This document shows positions 427-51,793 of a stretch of 64,000 nucleotides of DNA, one piece after another. Position numbers and translations under genes: made by a program. A model generated the notes under the pieces. The model made no database searches. It saw only the letters and a list, made by a program, of their open reading frames with translations, and was not told the origin of the DNA. Each line of letters starts with the position of its first letter. The stretch's first letter is position 1. The stretch is from the human T2T-CHM13v2.0 reference genome, Homo sapiens, in assembly GCF_009914755.1 (NCBI RefSeq), contig NC_060931.1; one strand, 5' to 3'.

Positions 427-843
<417 letters not shown>

Positions 844-3464: not shown

Positions 3465-4080
<616 letters not shown>

Positions 4081-17283: not shown

Positions 17284-22717
<5,434 letters not shown>

Positions 22718-23404: not shown

Positions 23405-23857
23405 GTCTTCAACCTAAAATTCTATCTTACAAGATCCTTGCCAGGATGCAGATTTGAATACTATAGTGAAGTCTGTACATGAAGAAATGATGCTTTTAGG
23501 GAGGAAAAAAAAAGGTAATAACAACCTTCAAGAGCCCCTTCATCTCAACTCGGCATAAACAAGGCAAGATTCTGAGAGTGGCCGCCCCTGGAAGCAGAAA
23601 TTATTCTTGTGGCTATCCATTGGCTCCTGAGGCTCTAATCAGAGATGGGGCACCTTTAGTACCAGGGGAGTGACTGTTGCCCATAAGGTACTGGACATCA
23701 ACTTTCAAGAGCAGCCCCAGCTCCTTAAGCTGCTGGTCCTGGTGCATCTGCTGACTTTCATGTAGAAGATAGCAGAGCTTTGGCGACATTACAACATAAG
23801 AACTGCAGAGAGGTGTAATCCCAGTGGAAGACTGAATCGAGAGACTCAAAAAGGAAG
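23405..23857 (+). other. ZNF713: Probable ZNF713 5'UTR exon (453 nt) containing a degenerate SCAN-domain coding relic and several uORFs
   Basis: Acceptor CTCATTACAG|G and donor AAG|GTAAAC; non-repetitive; translated fragments match the SCAN consensus. Confidence 0.75.
23626..23846 (+). pseudogene. Fossil SCAN domain (frameshifted, internally deleted, with stops)
   Basis: Collinear fragments PEA / QR / YQG / VTVAHKVL / QL,QE / QLLKLLVLVHLLTFM* / QHKNCREV / VED,NRE versus SCAN consensus [22 protein letters not shown]...[15 protein letters not shown]...HPE.GEE....VEDLERE. Confidence 0.8.
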
Positions 23858-24425
23858 GTAAACACTTGGAAAAATCAGAATAGTGACATCTCCTTTGCAT
23901 ATTGGAAGGATCACCTTAGGGGAGAGGAGAGGCAGATCTCTGGAGTATTCACTTTGGGGTGAATTCATTCCTTGTGGGGATAAAGAGTAAGAATGGACCC
24001 TCACCCATGTGCTCTCCATCGCCTCATCCCAGTAGTTCTCATCTACACTTAGAGTCACTTGGAGACTTTACAATTTAAAATGCTGTTGCTCAGACCCATG
24101 CCAGATCAATTAAATCCAAATCTCTGAGTGTAGGGGCTGAACACTGGCTTCTTTTTAAATTGCCATCAGTATTTAGCCAGGGCTGAAAGCCCCTGAGCTC
24201 CCCTATGCCACAACAAGGGGAGTTGCACCCCCGAAGACAGACAGTTCTGCATTGAATTCCCGAACTCCCGAACATCATAGAAGAGTAGAGACGTCACAAC
24301 CTTTAGGCTTATGTCTTAGAGGGCTTCTCAGTACTGTCTGCCATACCTACACAAAGCAGAATCTCCAGGATTTAAATTTAACCTTCGTGTCATATATTAA
24401 CAAGATGCTTCTCTTTTTCCTAGTT

Positions 24426-24512
24426 ATGCCTTCTCAGAATGCTGTTTTTTCTCAGGAGGGGAACATGGAGGAGGAAGAAATGAATGATGGCTCACAGATG
24501 GTGAGATCTCAG
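24426..24512 (+). CDS. ZNF713: ZNF713 first coding exon (exon 24424-24512): MPSQNAVFSQEGNMEEEEMNDGSQMVRSQ
   Basis: Acceptor TTTTTCCTAG|TT ATG and donor CAG|GTAAGT; 87 coding nt, phase 0, in frame with KRAB-A; second ATG with strong Kozak context (AACATGG) at 24465. Confidence 0.88.
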
Positions 24513-24980
24513 GTAAGTTCAGTTTTCCTCTCCTCTGAAATGCCAGTGTTCTCAGAATGTGGGCACTTTTACTTTTTCATTTCTCAGAAGTGCTGAGTCA
24601 CAAAAATCCAGAGCCCAGGAGATTCATGTGACAGATGATATACTCTCCACAGCATGTTTTCCATTCACCTATGTAGCTCTTTCTAGCTCTTCCCTCCTTC
24701 CAGCATTTTCACCAGACTCAATTTCATGGATTCCTGCCTGTTCTGGACGCTGTGAAGAAAACAAAACAATGGACTGTCTTTTAATCGTCCTTAAATAGCT
24801 CAGTAAAATTTAAACAATGCTTGCATTCTCTGTGTAAACACAGTGACTGATGCCGAGGCCCCTAGGACTGCTTGGAGCTAATGGGATTAATAAGAATGCC
24901 TGAGGGTAACATCTATCACAAATTAATGTTTCCCAAGCATCTGTTGTATCTCTTCCAAAACCTGTTTAAATCTGTTTTGA

Positions 24981-34912: not shown

Positions 34913-35176
<264 letters not shown>

Positions 35177-50768: not shown

Positions 50769-51793
50769 ATGGAGAAAACAGACCCGAAATCAAAAAGTCA
50801 ACCACAAGCCAGAATATTTCTGATGAAAATCAAACCCATGAGATGATAATGGAGAGACTCGCAGGAGACAGCTTCTGGTACTCCATCCTAGGAGGACTCT
50901 GGGATTTTGATTACCATCCAGAGTTTAACCAAGAAAACCACAAGAGATATTTAGGACAAGTAACTTTGACCCACAAAAAGATCACACAGGAGAGAAGCCT
51001 TGAGTGTAATAAATTTGCAGAAAACTGTAATCTGAACTCAAACCTTATGCAGCAGAGAATTCCTTCCATTAAAATACCCCTGAATTCTGACACACAGGGA
51101 AACAGCATCAAACATAATTCAGACTTGATTTACTATCAGGGAAATTATGTAAGAGAGACTCCCTATGAATATAGTGAGTGTGGAAAAATCTTCAATCAAC
51201 ATATTCTTCTTACTGATCATATTCATACTGCAGAGAAACCCAGTGAGTGTGGGAAGGCCTTCAGCCACACCTCATCTCTTAGCCAGCCTCAGATGTTGCT
51301 TACAGGAGAGAAGCCCTATAAGTGTGATGAATGTGGAAAAAGATTCAGCCAGAGGATACATCTCATTCAACATCAGAGAATTCACACAGGAGAAAAGCCT
51401 TTTATATGCAATGGATGTGGGAAAGCCTTCCGTCAGCATTCATCCTTTACTCAACATCTGAGGATTCATACTGGAGAAAAGCCCTATAAATGTAATCAAT
51501 GTGGTAAAGCTTTTAGCCGCATCACATCCCTTACTGAACATCATAGACTTCATACCGGAGAGAAACCTTACGAATGTGGTTTCTGTGGCAAAGCCTTCAG
51601 TCAGAGGACACATCTGAATCAACATGAAAGAACTCATACAGGAGAGAAACCCTATAAATGTAATGAATGCGGGAAAGCCTTTAGCCAGAGTGCACACCTT
51701 AATCAACACAGGAAAATCCATACTCGGGAGAAATTATGTGAATATAAATGTGAGCAAACTGTTCGCCACAGTCCTTCATTTAGCAGCACATAA
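50769..51793 (+). CDS. ZNF713: ZNF713 terminal coding exon: spacer, two degenerate fingers, five intact C2H2 fingers (51317-51721), stop TAA
   Basis: TTTCTTTTAG|AT phase-1 acceptor; contains ORF 50843-51793; TGEKPY linkers; total spliced CDS is 443 aa. Confidence 0.95.

What the first reader, a model, noticed from the sequence alone, without database searches (positions are those of the whole stretch)
23626..23846. Fossil SCAN domain hidden in the 5'UTR: ZNF713 looks like a ZKSCAN gene that lost its N-terminus
Seen: collinear fragments CCT GAG GCT (PEA, 23626), CAG AGA (QR), TAC CAG GG (YQ), VTVAHKVL (23670), CAACTT-CAAGAG (QL,QE), QLLKLLVLVHLLTFM* (23718-23765), QHKNCREV and GTG GAA GAC (VED, 23824)..NRE. 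Established: the SCAN consensus reads [50 protein letters not shown]......HPE.GEE....VEDLERE and is encoded by one ~400-500-nt first coding exon of SCAN-KRAB-C2H2 genes. Here the QWLRPE..TKE block is deleted and frameshifts and stops are present, yet both splice sites survive. Inference: the oligomerisation domain was lost while the exon was kept as regulatory UTR. The ORF track does not show it.
Basis: partly seen in the sequence, partly recalled or inferred. Interest (0 to 1): 0.85.

Follow-up and report, generated by a model that had tools for sequence, protein, structure and literature searches.

The report
Decayed SCAN-box remnant in ZNF713 5'UTR
A non-coding exon in front of the human ZNF713 start codon very probably holds the worn-down back two thirds of a SCAN dimerisation domain, one more example of a KRAB zinc-finger gene that lost this domain by decay.

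Summary
Only the 3' part stands above chance. A DNA profile I built from 47 human SCAN exons has its best hit in the whole 64-kb window, both strands, at 23718-23849 (+). That hit scores 12.4 bits, E 0.00099, and the next best hit has E 0.34. No dinucleotide shuffle of the exon reaches the real score (0 of 2000). A frameshift-tolerant codon alignment covers SCAN positions 31-90 of 95 at 23678-23852. It needs four frameshifts and one codon deletion.

The hit lies on the gene's strand in the exon just before the start-codon exon, and it ends about 8 nt before the splice donor. ZNF713's paralogues ZFP69 and ZFP69B carry a clear SCAN 3' half in the equivalent exon.

None of the 51 eutherian ZNF713 proteins I found has a SCAN domain, so any loss predates the placental radiation. 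I could not inspect orthologous DNA. Loss of SCAN by degeneration is already described as recurrent (PMC2443715). This is a new member of a known kind and of modest interest.

The parts
23405..23857 (+). ZNF713 5'UTR exon, exon 3 of 7 in NM_182633.3, the host of the fossil. The acceptor reads ..TTACAG|GT and the donor AGGAAG|GTAAAC.
   Evidence: Hub annotation; splice sites read. A DNA search of the whole genome finds only this copy (1 match), so it is not a dispersed repeat at that sensitivity.
23678..23852 (+). SCAN-like fossil. It is collinear with positions 31-90 of a 95-position SCAN profile and is broken by four frameshifts (near 23681, 23762, 23815, 23832), one codon deletion and in-frame stops.
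   Evidence: Codon alignment trace, 21.04 bits; shuffle controls.
23718..23849 (+). DNA-level match to columns 130-267 of the 285-column SCAN exon profile.
   Evidence: nhmmer 12.4 bits, E 0.00099, best hit in the window. The 3'-half model alone gives 14.0 bits, E 0.00095. The segment matches the majority consensus at 76 of 126 aligned columns and averages 55% identity to the 47 SCAN exons, which average 70% among themselves.
23688..23765 (+). Best-preserved block, one open frame reading VLDINFQEQPQLLKLLVLVHLLTFM then a stop. It corresponds to the central, most conserved SCAN stretch.
   Evidence: hmmsearch --max gives 5.3 bits, E 9e-4 for one sequence. The middle block alone is reached by 3 of 2000 shuffles.
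23626..23693 (+). They are present as letters but not distinguishable from chance.
24424..24512 (+). Linker exon with the present start codon at 24426. Its product aligns with the ZFP69B residues that directly follow that gene's SCAN remnant.
   Evidence: Annotation; BLASTP of lemur ZNF713 against ZFP69B gives one alignment from residue 6 to residue 43 onward, 48% identity; multiple alignment. The two human linker exons alone give no BLASTP alignment.
34937..35063 (+). KRAB-A exon.
   Evidence: Translation; genome-wide KRAB matches.
50769..51793 (+). Last coding exon, holding the tether and the zinc fingers. The tether (first 135 residues) identifies the paralogues.
23446..23762 (+). Six upstream ATGs inside the fossil exon (23446, 23479, 23487, 23490, 23645, 23760). 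All open short reading frames of 1-23 codons that end before the main ATG.

Best explanation
Window 23678-23852 (+) is a molecular fossil of the C-terminal two thirds of a SCAN box. An ancestor of ZNF713 carried a SCAN-coding exon upstream of its linker, KRAB-A, KRAB-B and zinc-finger exons. The reading frame decayed through frameshifts, stops and heavy substitution, and the N-terminal third is now unrecognisable. The exon kept working splice sites, so it persists as a non-coding 5'UTR exon. Translation now starts at 24426 in the next exon, so the protein is a plain KRAB zinc-finger protein without the SCAN oligomerisation surface.

Shown here: the SCAN-like signal, its strand, its place in the gene, and the half-SCAN in the paralogues. 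Inferred: the ancestry, a loss before the placental radiation, and any effect of the exon's six upstream ATGs on translation.
For: 1. A DNA profile of 47 human SCAN exons has its best hit in the window exactly here: 12.4 bits, E 0.00099, with the next best at E 0.34. No comparable chance hit appears in 360 kb upstream of six paralogues. The only strong hits there are the true remnants in ZFP69 and ZFP69B.
2. 0 of 2000 dinucleotide shuffles of the exon reach the nhmmer score. The tail adds collinear signal beyond the middle block, with 5 of 1000 shuffles as good.
3. The frameshift-aware codon alignment is reached by 1-15 of 2000 shuffles over four penalty settings. Its path is collinear over 60 profile positions.
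4. Context that does not depend on the score: the hit is on the gene's strand, in the exon just before the start-codon exon. Its end, at profile column 267 of 285, lies 8 nt before the donor. In 39 of the 47 real exons the donor GT sits at columns 283-284. In ZFP69 and ZFP69B it sits near column 275.
5. The ZNF713 tether has ZFP69B and ZFP69 as its 5th and 6th best genome matches, counting its own locus first, at E 9e-8 and 5e-7. Both have a strong SCAN 3' half, at E 2e-12 and 3e-14, in the exon before their linker exon. They are named ZFP69 and ZFP69B in public records, and some orthologues carry PF02023. ZNF713 aligns with ZFP69B from the residue right after that remnant to the C-terminus.
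6. Passages of PMC2443715 describe SCAN loss 'by deletion or sequence degeneration' in SCAN-KRAB genes as recurrent, with degenerate SCAN sequence left in the corresponding exon.
Against: - The signal is weak and comes mostly from one leucine-rich block of about 28 codons. At protein level the tail alone is not significant: 402 of 2000 shuffles are as good, and the tail extension is reached by 95 of 2000 at default penalties.
- The second-best window tile in the codon test scores 19.25 against 21.04.
- Pfam's SCAN model sees nothing in single frames.
- The 5' third is absent.
- No direct DNA similarity to the ZFP69 or ZFP69B exons was found; the best blastn hit has E 0.57 and is off-diagonal.
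- A profile of the ZFP69-type 42-residue remnant is not significant on the exon: 1106 of 2000 shuffles as good over the whole exon and 247 of 2000 over 23740-23857 at default penalties, and 175 and 13 of 2000 at lax penalties.
- The three best tether paralogues after ZNF713 itself (chr16, chr12, chr5) show no SCAN signal in the 40 kb upstream.
- The KRAB-A box resembles ordinary KRAB genes more than those beside intact SCAN exons.
- No orthologue with a better frame was seen.
- At nhmmer's own E-value, a genome-wide scan would give dozens of chance hits of this strength, so the case rests on the combination with position.
Confidence: 0.78

Rival explanations
1. Chance resemblance. A CTG-rich, leucine-coding stretch in an ordinary 5'UTR exon happens to resemble the most conserved SCAN stretch, and the rest is over-reading.
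For: Most of the score sits in one block. The 5' fragments are at chance level. Pfam finds nothing. The runner-up tile scores 19.25. The ZFP69-specific profile is not significant.
Against: 0 of 2000 shuffles reach the DNA score, and the tail adds independent collinear signal with 5 of 1000 shuffles as good. The hit is the best in 128 kb of searched sequence. It also falls on the right strand, in the right exon, and in register with the donor. By my rough estimate (7 donors x 20 nt out of 128,000) that placement alone has odds of about 1 in 1000. Paralogues carry a real SCAN half in the equivalent exon.
Confidence: 0.17
2. The sequence is SCAN-related but was never part of the ZNF713 reading frame. 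For example, it could be an exonised fragment of a SCAN pseudogene or of a SCAN-like retroelement capsid sequence inserted into the intron.
For: The match covers only part of the domain. The N-terminal third and any start codon are missing.
Against: The exon is single-copy in the genome. The match is in register with the exon's donor, as in real SCAN exons. ZFP69 and ZFP69B show the same arrangement with the remnant still coding. The 5' part of the exon is present in squirrel and rabbit gene models, so it is old.
Confidence: 0.05

Closest known systems
ZFP69 and ZFP69B (human chr1 cluster), KRAB zinc-finger genes whose first 42 codons are the C-terminal half of a SCAN box
   Same: They are paralogues of ZNF713 by the tether and are collinear with it over the whole protein at 48-50% identity. 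The SCAN-derived sequence lies in the exon before the linker exon and ends at its donor. Only part of the domain survives.
   Different: In ZFP69 and ZFP69B the remnant is still open and translated, scores 42-49 bits with the DNA profile, and is recognised by Pfam in some orthologues. In ZNF713 it is non-coding, frameshifted, and scores 12 bits. No direct similarity between the two kinds of remnant could be shown.
Degenerate SCAN or KRAB exons in C2H2-ZNF orthologues (Tadepally, Burger and Aubry 2008, PMC2443715; passages read)
   Same: An effector domain is lost by sequence degeneration while the exon-intron structure of a SCAN-KRAB gene is kept. The paper reports a degenerate SCAN in the corresponding exon of human and mouse ZNF187 orthologues, and it proposes that KRAB genes arose from SCAN-KRAB genes in this way.
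   Different: Their cases were shown by high nucleotide identity to an intact orthologue. Here no intact orthologue is known and the decay is much deeper. ZNF713 has 0 occurrences in that paper's main text; I did not look at its supplements.
Canonical SCAN-KRAB zinc-finger genes (intact SCAN exons L001-L049)
   Same: The exon order is the same (SCAN exon, linker, KRAB-A, KRAB-B, finger exon), and the SCAN sequence runs up to the exon's donor.
   Different: Those exons are open frames scoring 100-154 bits with PF02023. The ZNF713 exon is closed in all frames and is invisible to PF02023.

Membership tests
SCAN domain (Pfam PF02023) | Match to the curated family profile above its cut-off (27 bits) | tested here: not met
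   hmmscan of five + strand frames and one - strand frame gives no SCAN hit at E<=10. The whole-genome six-frame PF02023 scan gives 91 matches, none in the window.
SCAN domain (Pfam PF02023) | An open frame of about 85-90 codons encoding the whole domain | tested here: not met
   The longest stop-to-stop frame through the region has 44 codons. The best path needs four frameshifts and one deletion.
SCAN domain (Pfam PF02023) | N-terminal third of the domain present | tested here: not met
   The 5'-half DNA profile has no hit in the exon among 54 hits at E<=200. In the codon test 1930 of 2000 shuffles do as well.
SCAN-derived sequence (fossil) | Similarity to SCAN exons above shuffled and genomic controls | tested here: met
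   nhmmer E 0.00099, best hit in the window. 0 of 2000 shuffles reach it. The codon alignment is reached by 1-15 of 2000 shuffles.
SCAN-derived sequence (fossil) | Position and register of a SCAN exon: same strand, upstream of linker and KRAB-A exons, domain end next to the donor | tested here: met
   Annotation. The hit ends 8 nt before the donor. In 39 of 47 real exons the donor follows profile column 282.
Effector-domain loss by degeneration (Tadepally 2008 type) | An orthologue or outgroup in which the same exon still encodes the domain | not testable with these tools
   Only proteins could be searched. 48 + 3 ZNF713 orthologue clusters were found, none with PF02023 and the best E 0.78 with my profile. 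No mammalian genome other than this one is held.
Effector-domain loss by degeneration (Tadepally 2008 type) | A close paralogue that keeps SCAN sequence in the equivalent exon | tested here: met
   ZFP69 and ZFP69B.
ZFP69-type truncated SCAN | Specific similarity to the 42-residue ZFP69/ZFP69B N-terminus | tested here: inconclusive
   A profile of 81 aligned segments from 78 proteins was tested. Over the whole exon, 1106 of 2000 shuffles do as well at default penalties and 175 of 2000 at lax penalties. Over 23740-23857 the counts are 247 and 13 of 2000. blastn finds nothing.

The most novel reading that the evidence does not exclude
ZNF713, ZFP69 and ZFP69B, and perhaps further 'plain' KRAB genes that share their tether, descend from one SCAN-KRAB ancestor and show three stages of the same decay. 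The ZNF713 exon has survived about 100 million years as a spliced exon because it now acts on translation through its six upstream ATGs, or on transcription through the overlapping RefSeq enhancer feature at 23608-24807. That would make it a domain exon re-used as a regulatory leader.
Probability: 0.2. Interest if true: 0.5.

Novelty: new member of a known kind. Interest (0 to 1): 0.3.

Why it matters
It adds a concrete and deeply decayed example to the model that KRAB zinc-finger genes arose from SCAN-KRAB genes by degeneration of the SCAN exon (PMC2443715). It ties ZNF713 to the ZFP69/ZFP69B lineage. It also explains an odd feature of the gene, a 453-nt, ATG-rich non-coding exion just before the start codon.

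For ZNF713 biology (the gene carries the FRA7A CGG repeat; Metsu 2014, seen only as a reference), it means the protein cannot pair with SCAN proteins. It also means the 5' leader is likely to dampen translation.

It does not change any general principle.

Tried and rejected
- Pfam hmmscan on single frames gave nothing.
- phmmer of the 44-residue frame against PDB sequences gave nothing.
- The whole-genome PF02023 scan had no hit in the window.
- A DNA search of the exon against the genome found only itself, so it has no near-identical paralogous exon and is not a repeat family.
- blastn of the exon against the ZFP69 and ZFP69B remnant exons gave only short off-diagonal matches, best E 0.57.
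- The ZFP69-specific N-terminal profile was not significant at default penalties.
- BLASTP of the two human linker exons gave no alignment at E<=100.
- The linker exon searched against the genome found only itself.
- I considered calling a chr19 tether match (C19:61163545) a SCAN-KRAB relative because a SCAN exon lies 29 kb upstream. I rejected this because the SCAN exon may belong to a neighbouring gene, and I did not resolve it.
- I considered a KRAB or finger phylogeny. I did not build one, because the 42-residue KRAB-A box gives 60-81% identity to 150 genes with no resolution, and the tether is only 31-38% identical among paralogues.

Full report
**What was checked.** The window is human chr7 with ZNF713. 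The finding lies in the 453-nt 5'UTR exon 23405-23857, which is followed by the exon that holds the start codon (24426). I read the sequence and all stop-to-stop frames.

**Standard tools see nothing.**
- Pfam hmmscan on the five + strand frames and the 100-codon - strand frame gave no SCAN hit at E<=10.
- phmmer against PDB sequences gave none.
- A six-frame PF02023 scan of the whole genome listed 91 matches, including several decayed ones, but none in this window.
- A DNA search of the exon against the genome found only itself.

**Building a fair test.**
- I fetched 48 intact human SCAN exons and kept 47. One, L012, was dropped by my motif filter.
- From these I built a 95-position protein profile and a 285-column codon-aligned DNA profile.
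- hmmsearch with all filters off gave 5.3 bits, E 9e-4 for a single sequence. The hit is in the frame that reads ..VLDINFQEQPQLLKLLVLVHLLTFM, aligned without gaps to profile positions 35-65.
- nhmmer over the whole window, both strands, put its best hit at 23718-23849 (+), profile columns 130-267, 12.4 bits, E 0.00099. The next hit has E 0.34.
- None of 2000 dinucleotide shuffles of the exon reached the real score (real 11.7 bits, maximum 8.5).
- The same profile run over 360 kb upstream of six paralogues gave only two strong hits, both true SCAN remnants, and nothing else above 5.4 bits. The E-values therefore look honest.

**A frameshift-tolerant codon alignment of my own.**
- Penalties were set beforehand. 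The exon scores 21.04 bits against a shuffle mean of 12.9 and sd 1.9. Shuffles reach it in 3 of 2000 and 2 of 2000.
- Three other penalty sets gave 1, 9 and 15 of 2000.
- It is the top tile of 848 tiles of the window, but the runner-up, a chance match near 17563-17586 (-), scores 19.25.
- The path runs from 23678 to 23852 over profile positions 31-90, with four frameshifts and one codon deletion.

**Where the signal comes from.**
- The middle block (23678-23765) alone is reached by 3 of 2000 shuffles.
- The tail (23766-23857) alone is reached by 402 of 2000 at protein level.
- Keeping the middle block and shuffling only the tail, the real total is reached by 5 of 1000 shuffles at DNA level. 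At codon level it is reached by 95 of 2000 at default penalties and 2 of 2000 at lax penalties; at strict penalties there is no extension at all.
- The tail therefore adds modest, collinear support.
The 5'-half DNA profile has no hit in the exon among 54 hits at E<=200, and 1930 of 2000 shuffles do as well in the codon test.
That stretch aligns without a gap as diverged residues.
- At DNA level the segment matches the SCAN majority consensus at 76 of 126 columns and averages 55% identity to the 47 exons, which average 70% among themselves.

**Context.**
- The hit is on the gene's strand, in the exon directly before the start-codon exon and two exons before KRAB-A.
- It ends 8 nt before the exon's donor. 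In 39 of the 47 real SCAN exons the donor GT occupies the last profile codon.
- This placement does not depend on the similarity score. By my rough estimate it would happen by chance about once in a thousand for a random hit in the window.

**Relatives.**
- The pre-finger tether of ZNF713 found orthologues in all three placental superorders: 48 clusters of 217-539 residues and 3 longer ones. None has PF02023, and none scores better than E 0.78 with my profile, whereas 78 of 78 ZFP69-type proteins are detected.
- The long forms only extend into GC-rich upstream exons.
- Squirrel and rabbit gene models start inside the orthologous exon's 5' part (13 of 22 and 10 of 19 identities), so the exon is old.
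- Within the human genome the tether matches 41 places. After ZNF713 itself come genes on chr16, chr12 and chr5, and then two neighbours on chr1.
- These two chr1 genes are ZFP69B and ZFP69 by the names public records give their products. Passages of PMC10547255 describe them as side-by-side paralogues about 105 million years old.
- Both have a strong SCAN 3' half (profile columns about 150-279; E 2e-12 and 3e-14) ending at a donor. It encodes the first 42 residues of the proteins. Some orthologues carry PF02023 in precomputed annotation.
- Lemur ZNF713 aligns with ZFP69B in one BLASTP segment from its residue 6 to ZFP69B residue 43, the first residue after the remnant, and on to the C-terminus at 48% identity (alignment).
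- The ZFP69 linker exon is 92 nt and the ZNF713 one 89 nt. Both begin with two bases that complete a split codon and both end ..TCN CAG|GT.

**Results against a specific tie.**
- The two linker exons alone give no BLASTP alignment.
- The two kinds of remnant show no direct similarity.
- The chr16, chr12 and chr5 paralogues show no SCAN signal in 40 kb upstream.
- The KRAB-A box is closest to ordinary KRAB genes.

**Reading.**
- The most economical account is a SCAN exon that decayed in the ZNF713 lineage before the placental radiation and stayed on as a spliced, non-coding leader. I put this at 0.78.
- Chance resemblance remains possible at 0.17, because the score is modest and concentrated.
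- A foreign SCAN-like insert is unlikely, at 0.05.
- The exon carries six upstream ATGs with short reading frames and overlaps a RefSeq enhancer feature. Whether it is kept for a regulatory role is untested.

**What is known.**
- Passages of PMC2443715 describe degenerate SCAN and KRAB sequence left in the corresponding exons of orthologues. They propose recurrent SCAN loss 'by deletion or sequence degeneration' as the route from SCAN-KRAB to KRAB genes. ZNF713 and ZFP69 do not occur in that paper's main text.
- A full-text search for ZNF713 with 'SCAN domain' found one paper, a review that lists ZNF713 among KRAB genes without such a claim.
- A search for ZNF713 alone listed 25 of 107 papers, none on gene structure by title or abstract.
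- A search for ZFP69 with SCAN found 17 papers. In the two whose passages I read, I saw no statement on a SCAN remnant.
- I did not open any supplements.
- So this is a new member of a known kind.

**Limits.**
- No mammalian genome other than this one is held, so the decisive comparison of orthologous DNA could not be run.
- My profiles come from human paralogues only.
- The codon aligner is home-made and its penalties are arbitrary, which is why I report four settings.

Noticed in passing
L051:8915-9113 (chr1:40348915-40349113) and L059:523-652 (chr1:40320523-40320652): ZFP69 and ZFP69B start their proteins inside a former SCAN box. The first 42 codons are the SCAN C-terminal half (nhmmer E 3e-14 and 2e-12). 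In ZFP69 a weak piece of the SCAN N-terminus (profile columns 4-59, E 0.38) lies just upstream of the ATG, so the middle of the domain appears to be deleted.
   Followed up: partly
window 23446-23762 and 18130: There are seven upstream ATGs in the spliced 5' leader, six of them in the fossil exon. All open short reading frames of 1-30 codons that stop before the main ATG at 24426.
   Followed up: partly
window 23613-23915 (-): A 100-codon stop-to-stop frame on the opposite strand spans the fossil. It has no Pfam match at E<=10 and is probably chance.
   Followed up: partly
window 17563-17586 (-): A 24-nt chance match to the most conserved SCAN stretch (nhmmer E 0.34). It is the runner-up tile in the codon test at 19.25 bits and a useful measure of the noise level.
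   Followed up: no
window 3726-3753 (-), 668-696 (+) and similar: A recurring short motif matches profile columns 96-125 of the SCAN DNA model at E 0.3-4 at several places in the window. It looks like a dispersed repeat (Alu-like, from recall) giving spurious weak hits.
   Followed up: no
proteins P0020, P0022, P0027; window 63666 onward: Some public ZNF713-like proteins are named as mitochondrial ribosomal protein S17 isoforms, or carry its Pfam domain beside KRAB. This points to read-through gene models between ZNF713 and its downstream neighbour MRPS17.
   Followed up: no
G000:C1:49723376-49723759 (+): A tether match to ZNF713 with an in-frame TGA (E 9e-6), possibly a pseudogene of this subfamily. 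No SCAN signal was found in the 20 kb upstream.
   Followed up: partly
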